The position numbers were made by a program, and so were the translations under genes. 6,043 nucleotides of DNA, from IMG/VR virus record IMGVR_UViG_3300020029_000007, positions 1 to 6,043 of that record, one strand, 5' to 3'. This stretch comes from a virus. The notes under the pieces were generated by a model. That model was not told where the DNA came from and made no database searches. It worked only from the letters and a program-made list of their open reading frames with translations. Shown here in pieces: positions 1 through 6,043 of this stretch; within the stretch, counting starts at the first letter, position 1, and every line of letters starts with the position of its first letter.

Positions 1-121
1 AGATGGAAAACTTACACCTTTATCTTGCCTCCTCCAACATCGCCGTTATACGCGAAAATTCGTATCTGCTGGCGTTGGTGATTTTCTTGGTTATATGCCT
101 CGCCCTTCTGCTCGTGTTTCG
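1..121. repeat. Terminal direct repeat, copy 1 (identical to 5923..6043); circular-contig overlap rather than a biological repeat
   Basis: By-eye comparison: agatggaaaacttacacctttatcttgcc...ctgctcgtgtttcg occurs identically at both window ends. It lies inside coding sequence of the Rep gene. Confidence 0.96.
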
Positions 122-475
122 TCGTGGTCTTATTTCGATTTTAAGAAGGGTATCAATTTTAATTACTCGATTCCTCGATATTATCTTAGGTATCTTAAAT
201 TGGAAGACGAAGTCGTTCGCTCGATTACTGCTGCTGATGCTTATGCACATTTTAGCAAGTCTCCTTTGGTTAAGTGTATTGTGTCTTTGTGTGTTGAGCG
301 GTTCAACCTCAATTCCGCCGTATCCAATAGAGCGTCGTATGCATGGGAACAAAAGCAAATAATGCGCTTTGCAGCATCTTCTCGGAAGATGCCCGACTTA
401 GACCCTCCTACTTGGCTAGATTTAGATATTCTCCGATTTTGGAGAGATCATTATAAACTTCAACTAATTACTTAA
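1..475 (+). CDS. VP4: Replication initiation protein (Rep, VP4 / protein A family), C-terminal portion; continuation of 5327..6043 across the circular junction
   Basis: The frame with codon starts at 2, 5, ... is the frame of ORF 95..475 in the track (MPRPSARVS...). The same residues YMPRPSARVS end the open frame that runs off the window at 6043. Stop TAA is at 473..475, 3 nt before the capsid ATG. The joined CDS 5327..5922 + 1..475 is 1,071 nt, giving 356 aa. Confidence 0.9.
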   Translation, partial: DGKLTPLSCLLQHRRYTRKFVSAGVGDFLGYMPRPSARVSSWSYFDFKKGINFNYSIPRYYLRYLKLEDEVVRSITAADAYAHFSKSPLVKCIVSLCVERFNLNSAVSNRASYAWEQKQIMRFAASSRKMPDLDPPTWLDLDILRFWRDHYKLQLIT

Positions 476-478
476 TTT

Positions 479-2278
479 ATGGGAAAACAACCTTTTATTT
501 CTCACGTTGTTAACGGCTACTCTCGTTATGATGTTCCTGAGAGTAAAGCCTTTACGTGCACACCGGGTATTCTCTATCCGGTGCGGATTGATTTTATCAA
601 TGCTCGAGACCGTGTATCTATTGAGCAGGGAATTGATGTTCGTAGTAACCCCCTTGCCGTTCCTACGTTCAATCCTTACACTGTTCGTCTGCATCGTTTT
701 TGGGTGCCGCTTCAGCTTTATCACCCCGAATTGAGGACGAATAGTAGTAAGTTTGACATGAATAATTTGAGTTTGAATTGGATTACCGCCCTTGTTGGTA
801 CGAGCGGAACAACCACTCCCAATTCCGCTCTTGGTGCTTCGCGTGCCTATCCTAACTCACTTATGTCCTGGCTTCGTGTTTCTAATAAGACATCGCTGCA
901 GCTTTCAAACCAACCTCCTTATACTGCTAGCCTCCCTTCCGGCGCTGCGGTTAATCAGTGGGCAAACGCTGATACATATCTAGCTTATTGGGATATTGTC
1001 CGAAATTATTACAGCTACTCGCAGTGGTCTTTATTTTCGATTGCGTGGCCTGCTTCCTGGTCGATTCTCGAAGACTCCTATTCTTTTGCCGCCCAATCTA
1101 CGTATTTCAAACAAGAGTTCTCTAATCTAGAGTTTCTTGATGCCTACTTTGAGAGCCAGTTTTATCCGTCAGCCGTTTCGAGTACGAACAACACTTTCAA
1201 TAGAGGTAACTTGTTTTTTCAGATAATCAATTCTCAACTTCCTTCAGGCGGCGATCAAGATGGTTACCCCGTTTCTGCTACGCTGCCTAGCGGTGCTAAC
1301 ATTGTCTCTGGAGGTGGCCCGTCAGGTCAGTTTTCTGGTGCTATAGGTGAGAATTCTGTCTCTAGTATTTCCGCTTTCCTATTCGCACATCCTATGGCTG
1401 TTGTACCTTCGAATCCTGATCGTTTTAGTCGCCTTATTCCTGTAGGCTCTTCGTCTGCTGTTTCTATGACTGGCGTAAGCACTATTCCGCAGCTGGCTAT
1501 TGCTTCTCGCCTTCAGGAATACAAAGACCTCCTCGGCGCTGGAGGTAGCCGTTATAGCGATTGGTTGGAGACGTTTTTTGCATCGAAGATCGAACACGTC
1601 GATCGCCCGAAGCTTCTTTTTAGTGCGTCGCAGACTGTTAATGTGCAGATTGTTATGAATCAGGCGGGACAGAATAATTTTTCCGGTTCGAGTGTTAATG
1701 GCCCTCTTGGACAACAAGGTGGTGCTATCGCATTCAATGATCGGTTAGGTCGTCGACAATCTTATTATTTCCGCGAACCCGGCTACATGATCGATATGCT
1801 GAGTATTCGTCCTGTTTATTTTTGGAGTGGCATCACCCCTGATTATTTGAACTATCAAGGCTCTGACTACTTTAACCCTATTTATAATGATATAGGTTAC
1901 CAGGACGTTCCCGCGGCTCGGCTTTTCAGCAATGCTGCTGGTTCGAACCTCGGTCTCGCAGTTGCTTACGAGCCTTGCTTTAACGAGTTTCGTTCGTCCT
2001 ATGATGAGGTATTGGGTTCGTTGTCTTCGTATCCTGCCCCTGAGTTAAGCGTCCCTAAGCCTCTTTACTCGTATTGGGTGCAACAGCGCTCTCTTGGTTT
2101 TTCGTATGTAGGTTCTGCTGGCGTTAATTATTATCCTGCTCTTTTCGTGGATATGGCGCAAGTTAATTCGCCTTTTGCGTCCAATGTAGAGGATAATTTC
2201 TTTATAAATATGTCTTATTCGGTTCAAAAGAAGAATCTTGTCAACAAAACCTTTGCTACTCGTTTGTCTAACCGTTAA
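479..2278 (+). CDS. VP1: Major capsid protein (Microviridae VP1 / F-protein family), 599 aa
   Basis: This is the longest ORF. Its N-terminal region (...PGILYPVRIDFINARDRVSIEQGIDVRSNPLAVPTFNPYTVRLHRFWVPLQLYHPEL...) has the layout typical of microvirus capsid proteins, including the hydrophobic F[FW]VP.R/Q block. Size and position next to Rep fit non-Bullavirinae microviruses. Identification is from memory of the family, not a search. Confidence 0.93.
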   Translation: MGKQPFISHVVNGYSRYDVPESKAFTCTPGILYPVRIDFINARDRVSIEQGIDVRSNPLAVPTFNPYTVRLHRFWVPLQLYHPELRTNSSKFDMNNLSLNWITALVGTSGTTTPNSALGASRAYPNSLMSWLRVSNKTSLQLSNQPPYTASLPSGAAVNQWANADTYLAYWDIVRNYYSYSQWSLFSIAWPASWSILEDSYSFAAQSTYFKQEFSNLEFLDAYFESQFYPSAVSSTNNTFNRGNLFFQIINSQLPSGGDQDGYPVSATLPSGANIVSGGGPSGQFSGAIGENSVSSISAFLFAHPMAVVPSNPDRFSRLIPVGSSSAVSMTGVSTIPQLAIASRLQEYKDLLGAGGSRYSDWLETFFASKIEHVDRPKLLFSASQTVNVQIVMNQAGQNNFSGSSVNGPLGQQGGAIAFNDRLGRRQSYYFREPGYMIDMLSIRPVYFWSGITPDYLNYQGSDYFNPIYNDIGYQDVPAARLFSNAAGSNLGLAVAYEPCFNEFRSSYDEVLGSLSSYPAPELSVPKPLYSYWVQQRSLGFSYVGSAGVNYYPALFVDMAQVNSPFASNVEDNFFINMSYSVQKKNLVNKTFATRLSNR

Positions 2279-2290
2279 TACATTAATTTT

Positions 2291-2587
2291 ATGGCACTTG
2301 ATTGGTTACTTGAGGATACTCCTGCTTACGTTTCTCGCGGTCAGCGTATTCTTTCCGTTCTTGATGGTTCTGGCTCTGTCGATGTTTTACCCGGGCGTCC
2401 GGATGTAGTGGTCGAACCTTCTGATTTTGATAAGGGCGACAAATTCAACCCTGAAATCGACTTCGACCCTAATTCATTTTCTCGTATGGATAAGTTCGAC
2501 GGACTCGAAGTTGGTCAGGAACTTATTGACTCAGAGATAGATAGGTCTAAGTCTGCTTCGAAGTCTACTAACCCTGAAGAAAAATAG
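2291..2587 (+). CDS. Hypothetical strongly acidic protein, 98 aa; possible scaffolding-type protein (function unverified)
   Basis: ATG at 2291 lies 12 nt after the VP1 stop, with the same AT-rich start context (cattaatttt ATG) as VP1 (acttaattt ATG). By my count there are about 22 D/E against about 11 K/R. Short recurring motifs are present: DFDKGDKF, IDFDPNSF, DKFDG. Stop is TAG at 2585..2587. Confidence 0.6.
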   Translation: MALDWLLEDTPAYVSRGQRILSVLDGSGSVDVLPGRPDVVVEPSDFDKGDKFNPEIDFDPNSFSRMDKFDGLEVGQELIDSEIDRSKSASKSTNPEEK

Positions 2588-2617
2588 TTCTTTCTTTACT
2601 TGACGATATATGTTACG

Positions 2618-2695
2618 TGCGCGGACCCCTTCTGCAAGAGTTCGTGAATTGCTGAAGGTTATTGGTAACGACTGCGGGAGAGGCCGCGCATTTTT
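2618..2695 (+). promoter_or_regulatory. Nested stem-loop followed by a T5 run, in the largest non-coding spacer; candidate complementary-strand origin or terminator/attenuator
   Basis: Outer stem tgcgcgg (2618..2624) pairs perfectly with ccgcgca (2684..2690). Inner stem ccttctgcaa (2628..2637) pairs with ttgctgaagg (2649..2658) at 9 of 10 positions, with an 11-nt loop. ttttt follows at 2691..2695. Confidence 0.5.
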
Positions 2696-2720
2696 CTATC
2701 GTTCTTTAAATTTTACTATC

Positions 2721-2912
2721 ATGTCCGATATTAAACAACCATTCTATAAGTCGAAGGCGTTTTGGACGCTCGTCTCTTCTATTGTTGCCGCTTTGGCTGC
2801 CTTTTTCCTTGCCTCGTGTTCTGCTCAAGCTAGAATGCAGCGTAGTGGCGTTCACATCGATACCGTGCGTGTCGATTATATCATCCGTTCTAACAATTTA
2901 ACTCACATGTAG
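2721..2912 (+). CDS. Small predicted lipoprotein, 63-aa precursor (about 30-aa mature peptide after Cys33)
   Basis: Sequence: MSDIKQPFYKSKAFWTLVSSIVAALAAFFLASC|SAQARMQRSGVHIDTVRVDYIIRSNNLTHM. It has a Lys-containing n-region, a hydrophobic h-region, and the lipobox L-A-S-C (nt 2808..2819). The gene occupies its own space with no overlap with core genes. Stop TAG is at 2910..2912, 1 nt before the VP2 ATG. The track's upstream ATG (2610) would translate through the hairpin spacer, so I prefer 2721. Confidence 0.6.
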   Translation: MSDIKQPFYKSKAFWTLVSSIVAALAAFFLASCSAQARMQRSGVHIDTVRVDYIIRSNNLTHM

Positions 2913-2913
2913 T

Positions 2914-4281
2914 ATGCCTATTCCTGTTGCCGCTGCTGCATCTTTCGGTCAAGCTCTTGGTCAATCCGCCGCTTCTACGGGCACTACTGGCCTAATTACT
3001 GGCGCCCTCGGTCAGCTTTTCGGAGGCATGAACGCCCGCCGCCAGTGGCGTTTCCAGCAAAAGCAGATGAAACTTCAGCAGCAGTATGCTTTAGAGCAAA
3101 TGCAAAAACAGTCAGAGCTTTCTTATGCTAATTGGCAGAGACAGTTTGACTACGAGAATGCTTATAATGACCCTTCGAAGCTTTTTGCTCGCTATTTGAA
3201 GGCTGGTGTTACTCCCGCGGCTGTTCTTGGTTCTTCGGGTGTTGGTGTTAACGCTACTATGTCAGGAGGTTCTGCCGCTATGCCTTCCGCTGCTGGCCCT
3301 TCTGGTGGCTCTTCAGTCAGTCCCGGTGCTTCGCCTGTTGCCGACCCTACTGCTATCGCGCAGAATATGGTTGCGCAGTCAACGGTAAGCCGTAACGATG
3401 CTGCTGCTAATCGCGATAACGCTGAGGCTCAGTCGATTAATGACCAGAATGTTGGCAATCAACTTTATACTGTTATGGCTCAAGCCCGTGTAGCTCTTGA
3501 TGAGGCAGTAACAAAACATAATTTAGCAGCCCATGATGTTCTTCGAGTTCAAGAGGATATAGAAAAGAATAATCGATTTATTTCTGATGCTACCCTTTTG
3601 AGTGTCATTGATGAAAAGAAGAATCAGGCTGCCCTTGTCGCTGCGGAAGTTCGCCGCTTGAATATCGAGAATGAAAATATAGGTGCGATCATGTCGGCTC
3701 AAGCCTTTATGATGAATACTCAGGCCGCTCTTAATCAAGTTCTTGGCGAACAGGCTCGCGAAGTTATAGAGTCTTTGCGTTTAAACAATCTTGACACTGC
3801 TAATGAGCTTGCACGTAATTGGGAAAAGCGTTTCGATATCGAAATTCCGAATCCTCAGTATTCAGAAAATCTTAGAAGTAAAAACCCTATTACTCGTGGA
3901 AATCCCGGTCCTAAAACTTTCAAGATTTCAATGTCGCTTAAAGATTTTCATGATAAAACTATTATAAACGAAGCAAATGCATCTGACTTCCTTCCCGAGC
4001 AGGCCCGCATTGCTCTTCGTAACGCGAAGGTTGACCCGTATGTTGAAATTTCTAAAGCCTTGGTTGGCGCGGCTGCTAGTATTGCTGGCGCAGGCATAAT
4101 TCGTGGAGGTATGTCTCGTGCGTCTAAGACTATCTCTGCCGGCGGTTCTACCAGTGATTCTGCTGGTTCTTCACTTACGACTCGTTACGACTCGAGAGGA
4201 AATCTTGTTGGTTATGCAAAAACAGAGATGACTCGTGGCACTCATTCGAGCTCGTACAATACTACTCGAAACTATCGTTAG
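2914..4281 (+). CDS. VP2: Minor capsid / DNA pilot protein (Microviridae VP2, functional analogue of phiX174 H), 455 aa
   Basis: The N-terminus is Gly/Ala-rich and hydrophobic (PIPVAAAASFGQALGQSAASTGTTGLITGALGQLFGG). It is followed by a Q-rich helix and the block NWQRQFDYENAYNDPSKLFARYLKAGVTPAAVLG (nt 3130..3231). That block resembles the conserved 'YN.P...R...AG.NP' signature of microvirus VP2 proteins. A long heptad-like central region and a Ser/Gly-rich tail follow. Its position after VP1 is typical. Confidence 0.85.
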   Translation: MPIPVAAAASFGQALGQSAASTGTTGLITGALGQLFGGMNARRQWRFQQKQMKLQQQYALEQMQKQSELSYANWQRQFDYENAYNDPSKLFARYLKAGVTPAAVLGSSGVGVNATMSGGSAAMPSAAGPSGGSSVSPGASPVADPTAIAQNMVAQSTVSRNDAAANRDNAEAQSINDQNVGNQLYTVMAQARVALDEAVTKHNLAAHDVLRVQEDIEKNNRFISDATLLSVIDEKKNQAALVAAEVRRLNIENENIGAIMSAQAFMMNTQAALNQVLGEQAREVIESLRLNNLDTANELARNWEKRFDIEIPNPQYSENLRSKNPITRGNPGPKTFKISMSLKDFHDKTIINEANASDFLPEQARIALRNAKVDPYVEISKALVGAAASIAGAGIIRGGMSRASKTISAGGSTSDSAGSSLTTRYDSRGNLVGYAKTEMTRGTHSSSYNTTRNYR

Positions 4282-4296
4282 AATTGTTGATTTTTT

Positions 4297-4327
4297 TTTG
4301 TATTTTAAGTTTTTGTTGTTAAATTTG
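4297..4327 (+). promoter_or_regulatory. Candidate Bacteroidota-type promoter (-33 TTTG / -7 TAnnTTTG) upstream of the ORFan cassette
   Basis: TTTG is at 4297..4300 and TAAATTTG at 4320..4327, a 19-nt gap. Both sit in the 72-nt AT-rich spacer between the VP2 stop (4281) and the ATG at 4354. The match is to the Bacteroides primary-sigma consensus and rests on motif only. Confidence 0.35.
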
Positions 4328-4353
4328 CCTTGTAAACCAATAATCTTATTATT

Positions 4354-4659
4354 ATGAAAAAGCTTAAGCAACCTGTAATTGACAAGCTGCGACTCGATGT
4401 TATAGAGTACGCGTTCGTAGAGTGGCTTGTCCGCCGAGGCATATTTACGGCCTTTAGGGCGAACTATGATCGCGTTCCTACGACTCGTAAAACCTTTCGA
4501 GACTGCTTGCGTGATCAAATCCAATATGTTTATCGTTCGCCCAGCCTTGGCCCCGAGTCTCTCATCTCCTCTGCTTTTCTGTTTACTTCAACCCCTGAGG
4601 GTTACGAATTCTGGATCAAGCACTCAGACGCTTGGAAGCGTTTTTACGATGAGCTCTAA
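4354..4659 (+). CDS. Hypothetical protein, 101 aa
   Basis: ATG has the AT-rich context cttattatt ATG. The protein has ordinary composition (MKKLKQPVIDKLRLDVIEYAFVEWLVRRG...TPEGYEFWIKHSDAWKRFYDEL). Stop is TAA. I recognise no family with confidence. Confidence 0.6.
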   Translation: MKKLKQPVIDKLRLDVIEYAFVEWLVRRGIFTAFRANYDRVPTTRKTFRDCLRDQIQYVYRSPSLGPESLISSAFLFTSTPEGYEFWIKHSDAWKRFYDEL

Positions 4660-4682
4660 ATGAAATATTAAATTATACTATT

Positions 4683-5006
4683 ATGACACACGTTCATGTT
4701 GTTATTCGCCGCGTTAATCCGGCCCTGAAGGTTGACTTCGTACAGGTAGGCTGCATCAAAGATGAGCAGTTTGAAACTCTTCATCTTGATGCTCTTGCTC
4801 GTACTCCTATTTCTGACTATGTAGAGCATTCTACTATTTCTGTTTCGCCCTATATCGATCATAGTCGTATTCCTAGTCTCGTAGAGGCCCTGATCGCGTA
4901 CCCTGATTTTTCGATTGACTTTTTCGATAATACACTTGTCCTTATGTTTAATGCTGATCTGACTCACGATGAAAGCACGTCGAAAGAAGAAGGGAAAGGG
5001 AACTAA
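4683..5006 (+). CDS. Hypothetical acidic protein, 107 aa
   Basis: ATG lies 23 nt after the previous stop, in the context tatactatt ATG. The translation looks globular and ends in a charged tail (DESTSKEEGKGN). The fully overlapping minus-strand ORF (4668..5015) has the R/N/K/I-rich composition expected of an antisense artefact. Confidence 0.55.
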   Translation: MTHVHVVIRRVNPALKVDFVQVGCIKDEQFETLHLDALARTPISDYVEHSTISVSPYIDHSRIPSLVEALIAYPDFSIDFFDNTLVLMFNADLTHDESTSKEEGKGN

Positions 5007-5052
5007 GGTAGTCACCCGCCCGCTCGGTGGAAGAGTTCTTTAACTCGTTGAG

Positions 5053-5089
5053 CCCCAGGAGATTTTGTTTCTCCTGAGGGTTCTTTTTT
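5053..5089 (+). terminator. Intrinsic (rho-independent) terminator-like hairpin plus T tract
   Basis: Stem ccccaggaga (5053..5062) pairs with tctcctgaggg (5070..5080): 10 bp with one bulged A (5077) and a 7-nt loop ttttgtt. It is followed directly by ttctttttt (5081..5089). It sits 47 nt after the stop at 5006. Confidence 0.6.
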
Positions 5090-5126
5090 ATTCATTCGTT
5101 CGTCGGTATATTCTAATTTTTGAATT

Positions 5127-5327
5127 ATGGATTATTTTGATTTTAGACCCAAGTATTCTCCTGTCATTAATAGTGCACCTCATCGTTACTCGATTGGCGC
5201 GTATCGTGGTCGAAAGCGAGTTATTATCGCTTGGTTTGTCGACGAAAACCCTGCGAACCAATATCTTATTCGTTGTCGTCGTACTAACCCTTATGTTAAA
5301 TTCGATTGTCTTAAAAGTCTCTTCTGA
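5127..5327 (+). CDS. Hypothetical small basic protein, 66 aa, translationally coupled to Rep
   Basis: Sequence: MDYFDFRPKYSPVINSAPHRYSIGAYRGRKRVIIAWFVDENPANQYLIRCRRTNPYVKFDCLKSLF, with about 12 K/R against about 5 D/E. Its TGA stop (5325..5327) shares one nucleotide with the Rep ATG (5327..5329) in the string tgatg. Confidence 0.5.
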   Translation: MDYFDFRPKYSPVINSAPHRYSIGAYRGRKRVIIAWFVDENPANQYLIRCRRTNPYVKFDCLKSLF

Positions 5328-6043
5328 TGGCTTGTTCGTCTCCCATATGGATACGTAATCGTCGTTATTTTGACAAGAAGAATCCTTGTCGCGATGGTTC
5401 TGATGTTGCTAAGTCTGCCTTAGCACTTCGACCCTGGGATATTTCTCGCTTGTGGCTGATGGTCCCGTGCGGAAAGTGCGAAGACTGCTTGCGTCGTCAG
5501 CGTAACGATTGGTTTGTTCGACTTGAGCGTGAGCTTGCTCGTTGTAAAGCCGATTCTCAGCAGGCTATTTTTATTACGATAACTATAGCTCCTAAGTATT
5601 ACGAGGAAGCATTGATTAATCCGACTCGTTTTATTCGACGGTGGAACGAGCGTGTCCGTCATAGCCTTGGTCACTCCTTTAAACATGCGTTTTTCCAGGA
5701 GTTTGGCACCCACCCTGAAATTGGCTCTGAGCCGCGCCTACATTTCCATGGTTTTCTCTTTGGGACCAACGTCTTATACAACGAAATCCGAAAGGCTGTT
5801 GGAGACCTTGGTTTTGTTTGGCTCGGAAAAGGTACGCACAAACGAGCTCGATATGTTGTTAAATATGTTACTAAGCAAATTCAATTTAATCCCGAAGAGA
5901 TTTCGGACAAATATGTTACTGTAGATGGAAAACTTACACCTTTATCTTGCCTCCTCCAACATCGCCGTTATACGCGAAAATTCGTATCTGCTGGCGTTGG
6001 TGATTTTCTTGGTTATATGCCTCGCCCTTCTGCTCGTGTTTCG
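5327..6043 (+). CDS. VP4: Replication initiation protein (Rep, VP4 / protein A family, HUH endonuclease), N-terminal 239 codons; open at the window end and continues at 122..475
   Basis: Manual translation from ATG 5327 gives a Cys cluster PCGKCEDCLRRQRNDW. Motif I AIFITITIAP begins around 5570. The HUH motif is LHFHGFLF (H at 5741). The active-site motif is ARYVVKYVTK (Y176 at 5852, Y180), matching the Y-x-x-K-Y double tyrosine of the phiX174 A protein family. The frame has no stop through 6043. It is absent from the ORF track only because it has no stop inside the window. Confidence 0.93.
   Translation, partial: MACSSPIWIRNRRYFDKKNPCRDGSDVAKSALALRPWDISRLWLMVPCGKCEDCLRRQRNDWFVRLERELARCKADSQQAIFITITIAPKYYEEALINPTRFIRRWNERVRHSLGHSFKHAFFQEFGTHPEIGSEPRLHFHGFLFGTNVLYNEIRKAVGDLGFVWLGKGTHKRARYVVKYVTKQIQFNPEEISDKYVTVDGKLTPLSCLLQHRRYTRKFVSAGVGDFLGYMPRPSARVS
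5923..6043. repeat. Terminal direct repeat, copy 2 (identical to 1..121)
   Basis: Same 121-nt string as the window start, beginning at the 'agatggaaaac' of 'gtagatggaaaac' (5921..). Confidence 0.96.

What the first reader, a model, noticed from the sequence alone, without database searches (positions are those of the whole stretch)
2721..2912. Stand-alone lipobox lipoprotein gene between the capsid and pilot genes: candidate lysis or superinfection-exclusion factor
Seen in sequence: this 63-aa ORF sits in its own non-overlapping slot. It has a textbook type II signal peptide (K-containing n-region, 17-18 residue hydrophobic core, lipobox LASC). After cleavage it leaves a mature acylated peptide of only about 30 aa (CSAQARMQRSGVHIDTVRVDYIIRSNNLTHM). 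Established knowledge: the lipobox [LVI][ASTVI][GAS]C directs Lgt/LspA processing. Very small lipoproteins act as colicin release/lysis proteins and as phage outer-membrane spanins. Phage lipoproteins such as T5 Llp and the Cor family block receptors for superinfection exclusion. Among Microviridae, the only well-characterised lysis protein is E of phiX174-like phages, which is not a lipoprotein. Lysis in the other lineages is largely unexplained. Inference: this gene is a plausible undescribed lysis or exclusion function for this microvirus lineage.
Basis: partly seen in the sequence, partly recalled or inferred. Interest (0 to 1): 0.72.

Follow-up and report, generated by a model that had tools for sequence, protein, structure and literature searches.

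The report
Conserved small lipoprotein gene in gut microviruses
This tiny gut virus of Bacteroidales bacteria carries a real, strongly conserved gene for a 63-residue lipoprotein precursor that most likely helps break or modify the host cell envelope, but its function has never been tested and the genome holds a second, hidden membrane-protein gene that could do the same job.

Summary
Window 2721-2912 encodes a 63-aa protein with a basic N-terminus, a 20-residue hydrophobic helix, the lipobox L-A-S-C (Cys33) and a 31-aa basic mature peptide.

It is a real gene.
- 83 distinct relatives all keep ATG and 63 codons. Variation is almost confined to third codon positions.
- It is present in 78 of 78 informative genomes retrieved by capsid similarity alone.
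- Across 302 distinct family members the Cys is effectively universal and position -1 is always S, G or A, even where the signal peptide is unrelated. That is the signature of a lipoprotein.
- The 100-aa form in databases is spurious. The upstream stretch is a conserved structured non-coding element.
- Relatives are integrated in two Alistipes genomes, so the host is Bacteroidales.

The protein belongs to no known family (colicin lysis, spanin, Llp, Cor). The hydrophobic signal region is far more conserved than the mature peptide, as in colicin release proteins, whose signal peptide is itself active.

Function is not shown. My estimates are lysis or release about 0.4 and superinfection exclusion about 0.3. 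The lysis argument is weakened by a conserved overprinted 119-aa membrane-protein ORF inside the Rep gene (3-362), which is an E-like rival or partner.

The parts
2721..2912 (+). Coding sequence of the 63-aa lipoprotein precursor, including the TAG stop.
   Evidence: ORF and sequence. All 83 distinct relatives have ATG and 63 codons. Codon-position entropy is 0.24/0.11/1.07. The gene is present in 78 of 78 informative loci retrieved by capsid similarity.
2721..2756 (+). n-region, MSDIKQPFYKSK (K5, K10, K12).
   Evidence: Read from the sequence. S11 and K12 are invariant across subfamilies.
2757..2816 (+). Hydrophobic h-region A13-S32, which includes lipobox positions -3 to -1 (L-A-S). It is the most conserved part of the protein.
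   Evidence: F14, W15, T16, L17, I21, A23, A24, L25, F28 and F29 are invariant while third codon positions are near-saturated. Pairwise identity across subfamilies is 0.79 here and 0.34 in the mature part. AlphaFold2 predicts a helix at 12-33 with pLDDT about 90.
2817..2819 (+). Cys33 codon (TGT), the predicted acylation site and first residue of the mature peptide.
   Evidence: Cys is present in 295 of 302 distinct domains. The other 7 are truncated or shifted by one residue. Position -1 is always S, G or A.
2817..2909 (+). Mature peptide of 31 aa, CSAQARMQRSGVHIDTVRVDYIIRSNNLTHM, with the conserved core GVHIDTVRVDYIIRSNN.
   Evidence: Core residues 43-59 are almost invariant in the close clade. 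Other subfamilies carry different mature modules of about 31 aa. No acidic residue follows the Cys, and mean net charge is about +2. No confident fold is predicted.
2910..2916 (+). Stop-N-start junction TAGTATG, which links the gene to the pilot gene VP2 (2914-4281).
   Evidence: The one-base spacing is found in 83 of 83 close relatives. The same tight spacing occurs in divergent genomes.

Best explanation
The gene encodes a small lipoprotein of a microvirus that infects Bacteroidales (Alistipes-type hosts).

Inferred pathway:
- The 63-aa precursor is inserted through Sec.
- Cys33 is acylated by Lgt.
- LspA cuts after Ser32.
- This leaves a 31-aa basic lipopeptide on a periplasm-facing membrane leaflet. 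It has no acidic surface-export signal and no Asp at +2.
- A 32-residue signal peptide stays in the inner membrane.

The job I think most likely is host lysis or progeny release by envelope damage, in the manner of colicin release proteins. There, a roughly 30-aa acylated peptide and its unusually stable signal peptide both act. It may work together with the overprinted membrane protein encoded inside Rep. The gene is co-translated with the pilot gene at low level, downstream of a terminator-like hairpin.

Shown here: the gene is real, its lipoprotein signature is conserved, it lies in a Bacteroidales microvirus, and it belongs to no known family.

Inferred: processing, location and the lysis role.
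For: Real gene:
- 394 homologous protein clusters, all on contigs of about 6 kb.
- Codon-position entropy of 0.24/0.11/1.07, as tight as the Rep N-terminal domain at 0.26/0.13/1.09.
- Present in 78 of 78 informative genomes retrieved by capsid similarity alone.

Lipoprotein signature:
- The PS51257 rule is met.
- Cys is kept and position -1 is S, G or A in all 295 domains that reach it.
- Members with unrelated signal peptides keep the x-[SGA]-C junction: P0216, P0218, P0219, P0224, P0227, P0228, L107 and L108.
- Sub-threshold NCBIfam hits go almost only to the N-termini of lipoprotein families.
- AlphaFold2 predicts a helix that ends at Cys33.

Host: integrated prophages that carry the gene occur in Alistipes montrealensis and in an uncultured Alistipes.

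Pointing to lysis:
- The genome has no peptidoglycan hydrolase or other known lysis gene.
- None of 102 loci that carry the lipoprotein has an M15 peptidase like that of phiHBP1. The three M15 microviruses lack the lipoprotein.
- Universal retention in a 5.9-kb genome suggests a core step rather than a luxury function.
- The size matches colicin release proteins.
- The signal region is the best-conserved part, 0.79 against 0.34 identity. This parallels the functional, stable signal peptide of the pCloDF13 release protein (references 16-18 in PMC5727409).
Against: - There is no experiment, and no sequence or structure link to any lysis protein.
- The overprinted 119-aa membrane ORF in Rep is a more E-like candidate. 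Similar hydrophobic +1-frame ORFs also occur in sister genomes that lack the lipoprotein, though those may be compositional.
- Genomes with about 40% capsid identity (L102-L106) have no lipoprotein yet must still lyse their hosts.
- 12 of 295 members have Glu at lipobox position -2 (LESC). This is outside the usual consensus.
- The M15 exclusivity test rests on only three genomes.
- SignalP and LipoP could not be run.
Confidence: 0.4

Rival explanations
1. Superinfection exclusion or receptor masking. The periplasmic lipopeptide binds a host outer-membrane receptor from the inside, as T5 Llp does with FhuA and Cor-type proteins do. Alternatively it binds the incoming pilot-protein tube. Either way it blocks entry of related microviruses and protects released progeny from inactivation on debris.
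For: - It is a small periplasm-facing lipoprotein, like Llp and Cor.
- In most genomes it sits next to the entry (pilot) gene and is translationally coupled to it.
- The mature domain comes in several exchangeable types on one signal peptide, including a hybrid, P0137. That is what a specificity module would look like.
- It is retained in integrated Alistipes prophages.
- Related lineages lack it, as expected of an add-on function.
- Another lysis candidate exists.
Against: - It has no similarity to Llp, Cor or any PHROG or PADLOC family.
- It is universal and under very strong constraint within the clade. Exclusion genes are usually sporadic.
- Mature-domain type does not track the capsid or pilot trees.
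- In the prophage lineage the gene is not next to the pilot gene.
- It does not explain why the signal peptide is the most conserved part.
Confidence: 0.3
2. It is not processed as a lipoprotein. The N-terminal helix stays as a membrane anchor and is itself the effector. In this reading the protein is a bitopic 'protein antibiotic' like phiX174 E or the ssRNA-phage single-gene lysis proteins. Its conserved transmembrane helix would bind a host membrane enzyme of cell-wall synthesis. The Cys would be kept for another reason.
For: - The helix is 20 residues long, the length of a full membrane span.
- It is invariant at the protein level while synonymous sites are saturated.
- It is far more conserved than the rest of the protein.
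- It carries small-xxx-small spacing (S19/A23/A27 and S20/A24).
- Glu at position -2 in 12 members is atypical for LspA substrates.
Against: - Members with completely different hydrophobic segments keep the same mature modules and the x-[SGA]-C junction. A lipobox explains this. A helix-only effector does not.
- Position -1 is S, G or A in 295 of 295.
- The mature core is also strongly constrained.
Confidence: 0.1
3. It has some other envelope role that is neither lysis nor exclusion. Examples are modulating outer-membrane vesicles or nutrient receptors, or countering an envelope-based defence.
For: Nothing ties the protein to a specific process, and the family has no characterised relative.
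Against: Genomes of 5.9 kb rarely keep genes outside replication, assembly, entry and exit. Microviruses are reported to have very few accessory genes (PMC9239249).
Confidence: 0.17
4. It is a chance ORF or an annotation artefact.
For: A lipobox-type ORF appears in about 8% of random genomes of this composition. The 100-aa database form is indeed an artefact.
Against: The codon-position pattern, the invariant length and start, and presence in 78 of 78 genomes and in lineages whose capsids are only about 25% identical.
Confidence: 0.02

Closest known systems
Colicin lysis / bacteriocin release proteins (Pfam Lysis_col, e.g. the pCloDF13 release protein and ColE1 Kil)
   Same: Both have a very small lipoprotein precursor and a mature acylated peptide of about 30 aa. 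Both act as a single gene for release with no peptidoglycan hydrolase. The signal peptide is conserved here and is functional in its own right in the release protein (references in PMC5727409).
   Different: There is no sequence similarity (no Lysis_col hit at E up to 10). The gene is in a virus, not a colicin operon, and nothing matches in 72,556 plasmids. The host is Bacteroidales rather than Enterobacteria. Dependence on phospholipase A is unknown.
Phage T5 Llp and Cor-family exclusion lipoproteins
   Same: All are small phage-encoded lipoproteins that face the periplasm and are encoded next to an entry or receptor-binding gene. A role in exclusion and in protecting progeny is plausible.
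   Different: There is no similarity in PHROGs. The mature part is half the size of Llp. The phage is an ssDNA microvirus. The gene is universal in its clade rather than sporadic.
Outer-membrane spanin subunits (lambda Rz1, T7 gp18.7) and unimolecular spanin (T1 gp11)
   Same: All are small lipoproteins, Rz1 having about 40 mature residues, and all are made late by a phage of a Gram-negative host.
   Different: No inner-membrane spanin partner, endolysin or holin cassette is present. The protein has no C-terminal membrane segment and is not proline-rich. No family hit was found.
phiX174 protein E
   Same: Both are small membrane-targeted proteins of a microvirus with a highly conserved transmembrane helix, in a genome without an endolysin.
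   Different: E is not a lipoprotein and is overprinted in gene D. This gene has its own slot and a lipobox. The overprinted ORF at 3-362 resembles E's genetic arrangement more closely.

Membership tests
Bacterial lipoproteins (type II signal peptide, PROSITE PS51257 rule) | Cys at position 15-35, preceded by [LIVMFWSTAG](2)-[LIVMFYSTAGCQ]-[AGS]. No charged residue in the six residues before that. K or R among the first seven residues. | tested here: met
   My own implementation of the rule finds the ORF: C33, AALAAF-FL-A-S-C, K5. It is the only hit of at least 40 aa in the genome.
Bacterial lipoproteins (type II signal peptide, PROSITE PS51257 rule) | The lipobox Cys and a small residue at -1 are conserved in homologues. 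| tested here: met
   295 of 302 distinct domains have the Cys, and the rest are truncated or shifted. Position -1 is S, G or A in 295 of 295. Position -3 is L in 214. However, position -2 is Glu in 12. The junction is kept under unrelated signal peptides.
Bacterial lipoproteins (type II signal peptide, PROSITE PS51257 rule) | An SpII call by a dedicated predictor (SignalP 6 or LipoP). | not tested
Bacterial lipoproteins (type II signal peptide, PROSITE PS51257 rule) | Acylation by Lgt and globomycin-sensitive cleavage by LspA. | not testable with these tools
   This needs lipid labelling or mass spectrometry.
Colicin lysis proteins (Pfam PF02402 Lysis_col) | Sequence match to the family profile. 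| tested here: not met
   None of 20 diverse members gives a hit at E up to 10.
Colicin lysis proteins (Pfam PF02402 Lysis_col) | Small lipoprotein with a mature peptide of roughly 28-33 aa. | tested here: met
   The mature peptide is 31 aa, and the family median is 31. The size range of release proteins is from my own knowledge.
Colicin lysis proteins (Pfam PF02402 Lysis_col) | Encoded in a colicin-immunity-lysis operon on a plasmid. | tested here: not met
   The gene is in a microvirus genome. tblastn finds no match in the plasmid collection.
Two-component or unimolecular spanins | An outer-membrane lipoprotein gene embedded in, overlapping or next to an inner-membrane spanin gene within a holin-endolysin cassette. 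Alternatively, a lipoprotein with a C-terminal membrane segment. | tested here: not met
   The neighbours are a non-coding hairpin and the pilot gene. There is no endolysin or holin family hit. The C-terminus is polar.
T5 Llp / Cor exclusion lipoproteins | Sequence membership in the phage families (PHROGs). | tested here: not met
   No PHROG hit at E below 0.1. The only hits are to families of unknown function at E of 0.16 or more.
T5 Llp / Cor exclusion lipoproteins | Binds the phage's own receptor and blocks infection. | not testable with these tools
   The receptor and a cultured host are unknown.
phiX174 E-type single-gene lysis proteins | Homology to E, or an overprinted gene inside a scaffold or other gene. 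| tested here: not met
   There is no family hit. The gene has its own slot, and third-position entropy of 1.07 shows no second reading frame.

The most novel reading that the evidence does not exclude
The gene is the first lipoprotein-type lysis system of an ssDNA phage, and both halves of the precursor act. The unusually conserved 32-residue signal peptide would stay in the inner membrane as an effector. The 31-aa acylated peptide would act at the outer membrane or on a periplasmic target. Possibly together with the overprinted membrane protein in Rep, this would give endolysin-free lysis of Bacteroidales.
Probability: 0.25. Interest if true: 0.8.

Novelty: new variant of a known kind. Interest (0 to 1): 0.55.

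Why it matters
phiX174 is the only microvirus whose lysis mechanism is known (PMC3394797). Gut microviruses are among the most abundant phages in mammals. How they leave or defend Bacteroidales cells is open.

This family gives a concrete, very small and highly conserved target to test. The protein is 63 aa and the key residue is a single Cys. Either outcome would be informative. If it is a lysis protein, it points to a new vulnerable step in the Bacteroidales envelope. If it is an exclusion protein, it explains competition among the many co-circulating microvirus strains.

The overprinted Rep-embedded ORF should be tested alongside it. The protein-level conservation of a 'signal peptide' is also unusual in itself.

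Tried and rejected
- 100-aa form starting at ATG 2610: rejected. The upstream frame has stops or indels in about a third of relatives. Some relatives have a second element of about 90 nt inserted there. The stretch is a hairpin with compensatory changes at 10 of 22 pairs.
- Family assignment by Pfam, PHROGs, NCBIfam, PADLOC and PDB sequences: nothing above threshold.
- Structure: two AlphaFold2 runs gave only the helix, and the mature part scored pLDDT 50-57. A fold search would be meaningless and was not run.
- Beta-hairpin idea for the mature peptide: it rests on the residue pattern only and the model does not support it.
- Mutual exclusion with the M15 peptidase: the result is consistent, but only three M15 genomes could be retrieved.
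- Co-variation of mature-domain type with the capsid or pilot protein: no pattern. The trees are star-like and incongruent.
- Three giant 'hits' in the representative search (P0153, P0207, P0223): these are repeat artefacts.
- 'Long forms' of 160-223 aa: examined. They occur in the prophage lineage only, not in the window.
- Literature searches for a microvirus lipoprotein or a lipobox-bearing single-gene lysis protein: nothing found.

Full report
**What the window is**

The 6043 bases are a circular microvirus genome of 5922 nt. The first 121 bases are repeated exactly at the end. The genes are:
- Rep/VP4, which runs across the junction (5327..475).
- The major capsid protein (479-2278, Pfam Phage_F and a PHROG major head protein).
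- An acidic ORF (2291-2587).
- The ORF in question (2721-2912).
- The DNA pilot protein VP2 (2914-4281, a PHROG pilot protein).
- Two ORFs of about 100 aa.

The nearest GenBank records are uncultured Microviridae from pig, civet, rodent, lemur and tortoise faeces, with about 80% nucleotide identity over about 60% of the genome.

**Checking the observation**

It has three lysines in the first 12 residues, a 20-residue hydrophobic stretch (A13-S32), L-A-S-C with Cys33, and a 31-aa mature peptide. My implementation of the PROSITE lipoprotein rule is met.

Such an ORF turns up in about 8% of random genomes of this composition. The motif alone therefore proves little.

**It is a real gene, and it is 63 codons long**

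A protein search found 394 homologous clusters, all on contigs of about 6 kb. IMG/VR held 175 relatives. In 83 distinct coding sequences of the close clade:
- The start is always ATG.
- The length is always 63 codons.
- Entropy by codon position is 0.24, 0.11 and 1.07. This is as constrained as the catalytic half of Rep, at 0.26, 0.13 and 1.09.

About half of the database entries are 100 aa long and start at ATG 2610. That extension is not coding. Roughly a third of relatives have in-frame stops or indels there, and some carry an extra element of about 90 nt. The stretch 2595-2707 is a conserved hairpin with compensatory changes at 10 of 22 pairs.

I also retrieved 80 genomes by capsid similarity alone. 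Of these, 78 carry the gene. The other two are contigs cut at exactly that place.

**It looks like a lipoprotein across the whole family**

A profile search of 1.84 billion representative proteins gave 77 clusters at the 50% identity level. Over 302 distinct domains:
- The Cys is present in 295. The other 7 are truncated or shifted by one residue.
- Position -1 is always S, G or A.
- Position -2 is S, A, T or V in 271.
- Position -3 is Leu in 214.

The most telling members have entirely different hydrophobic segments but keep the same mature modules joined at x-[SGA]-C. They are P0216, P0218, P0219, P0224, P0227 and P0228, Dulem virus 210, and Microvirus mar36.

Other points:
- Sub-threshold NCBIfam hits go almost only to the N-termini of lipoprotein families.
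- AlphaFold2 places a confident helix at 12-33 that ends at the Cys. The rest has no confident fold.
- One blemish: 12 members have Glu at position -2 (LESC), outside the usual consensus.
- After the Cys there is no Asp at +2. In 222 of 227 mature peptides there is no acidic residue at +2 to +6. From my memory of the Bacteroidota surface-export signal, this argues for a periplasm-facing location.

**Anatomy of the family**

The mature part comes in several types of about 31 aa. Examples are GVHIDTVRVDYIIRS in the window, TTRHYVVQSASSIKSGDTTRTTITYEQIGNFKRP, and ATTHRVQQTATSFSGKDSVVMTITYDSRGNIKK. All sit on a nearly identical signal region, and one hybrid combines modules.

Pairwise identity across subfamilies is 0.79 for residues 11-33 and 0.34 for the mature part. 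This is the reverse of what ordinary secreted proteins show. Synonymous sites in that stretch are saturated, so the constraint is at the protein level.

The stop codon is followed by one base and then the VP2 ATG in 83 of 83 relatives. In another lineage the gene instead sits between the pilot gene and Rep.

**Host**

A scan of one genome per bacterial species found the gene in two places. One is inside an 839-kb scaffold of Alistipes montrealensis and the other is in an uncultured Alistipes. In each it lies next to microvirus Rep, capsid and pilot genes, so these are integrated prophages.

The capsid of the Alistipes montrealensis prophage is only about 25% identical to the window's capsid. 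The family therefore spans distant microvirus lineages of Bacteroidales.

**What it is not**

No member matches the colicin lysis family, any spanin, Llp, Cor or defence family, any solved structure, or any plasmid. One GenBank TPA record is auto-named 'lipoprotein' and another 'chitin synthase regulator'.

I found no paper on a microvirus lipoprotein. Published work states that phiX174 is the only microvirus with a known lysis mechanism. It proposes M15 peptidases as endolysins in some Alpavirinae and gokushoviruses. The first Bacteroides fragilis microvirus isolate, phiHBP1, has such a peptidase and lacks this gene.

**Function**

Nothing computed here decides the function.

For lysis or release:
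- The genome has no hydrolase.
- The gene is universal and tightly constrained in a 5.9-kb genome.
- The precursor and mature sizes match colicin release proteins.
- The conserved signal region recalls the stable, functional signal peptide of the pCloDF13 release protein (references in PMC5727409).
- None of 102 loci with the lipoprotein has an M15 peptidase, and the three M15 genomes lack the lipoprotein. This is a weak test.

Against lysis, or for another role:
- A 119-aa ORF (3-362) lies in a second frame inside Rep. It has three hydrophobic segments and a basic tail.
- That ORF is open and full length in 85 of 91 loci, including divergent ones.
- Rep's third-position entropy falls from 1.09 to 0.46 exactly over the overlap and recovers after it. 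This is the classic overprinting signature and resembles the arrangement of phiX174 E.
- Sister genomes with about 40% capsid identity lack the lipoprotein but have hydrophobic ORFs in the same Rep frame. The latter may be compositional.

The exclusion idea fits the coupling to the entry gene and the swappable mature modules. However, module type does not follow the capsid or pilot trees.

My estimates are lysis or release 0.4, exclusion 0.3, an unprocessed bitopic effector 0.1, another envelope role 0.17, and artefact 0.02.

**Verdict**

The functional inference is reasonable but unproven, and the gene is not the only candidate for lysis. The family is a new variant of a known kind, small phage lipoproteins. 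It is found here in ssDNA microviruses of Bacteroidales and has an unusually conserved signal peptide.

Noticed in passing
window 3-362 (+), also readable as 5925-6043 joined to 122-362: An overprinted 119-aa ORF lies in a second frame inside Rep/VP4 codons 200-318. It has three hydrophobic segments and a basic tail (..PPYPIERRMHGNKSK). It is open and full length in 85 of 91 loci, including divergent genomes. Rep's third-position entropy drops from 1.09 to 0.46 exactly over the overlap. There is no Pfam or PHROG hit. It is a candidate E-like or holin-like membrane protein.
   Followed up: partly
window 2595-2707 (+): An intergenic element has almost invariant flanks (TTTACTTGACGATATATGYTACGTGCGCG ... 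CGCGCATTTTTCTATCGTTCTTT) in 81 of 92 loci. Between the flanks is a long hairpin with compensatory changes at 10 of 22 pairs, followed by a T-run. There is no Rfam match. It could be a terminator or attenuator ahead of the lipoprotein and pilot genes. It could also be a replication origin: from memory, ACTTGA..ATAT resembles the phiX174 nick region. That resemblance was not tested.
   Followed up: partly
window 1-121 and 5923-6043: There is an exact 121-nt terminal direct repeat, which is the assembly overlap of a circular genome. The true length is 5922 nt, and Rep runs across the junction (5327..475, 356 aa).
   Followed up: yes
window 4969-5043 (+): A 24-aa mini-ORF, MKARRKKKGKGTKVVTRPLGGRVL, overlaps the end of ORF 4683-5006. 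It has a basic head and a hydrophobic tail, like the small DNA-binding protein J of phiX174 (from memory). The same tail (..RRGGRRGK.RPK.TK..PLGGSHL) ends the long ORFs of the prophage lineage.
   Followed up: partly
L086 2486-3118; L092 7977-8585; L112-L117: In the Alistipes-prophage lineage the lipoprotein frame has no stop after the mature module. It stays open for about 140 more codons over another ORF in a different frame and ends in the J-like basic tail. About 35 of 77 representative clusters are such forms of 160-223 aa. It is unresolved whether this is one long protein or several products.
   Followed up: partly
L009, L014, L020, L026, L132 (between the hairpin and the lipoprotein ATG): Some genomes carry a second GC-rich element of about 90 nt (..GGCGAGGTGACGCATTTCGCGGTTCGGAGAACCGCCCCGAACGAAGTGAGGGTGCGGCACCG..). 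It is inserted between the conserved hairpin and the gene start.
   Followed up: no
MCP and VP2 of window, L001-L003, L005, L023, L050, L083 and others: The capsid and pilot-protein trees are incongruent. For example, L023 groups with the window by capsid but with L050 by pilot protein. This points to frequent recombination between gene modules in this clade.
   Followed up: no
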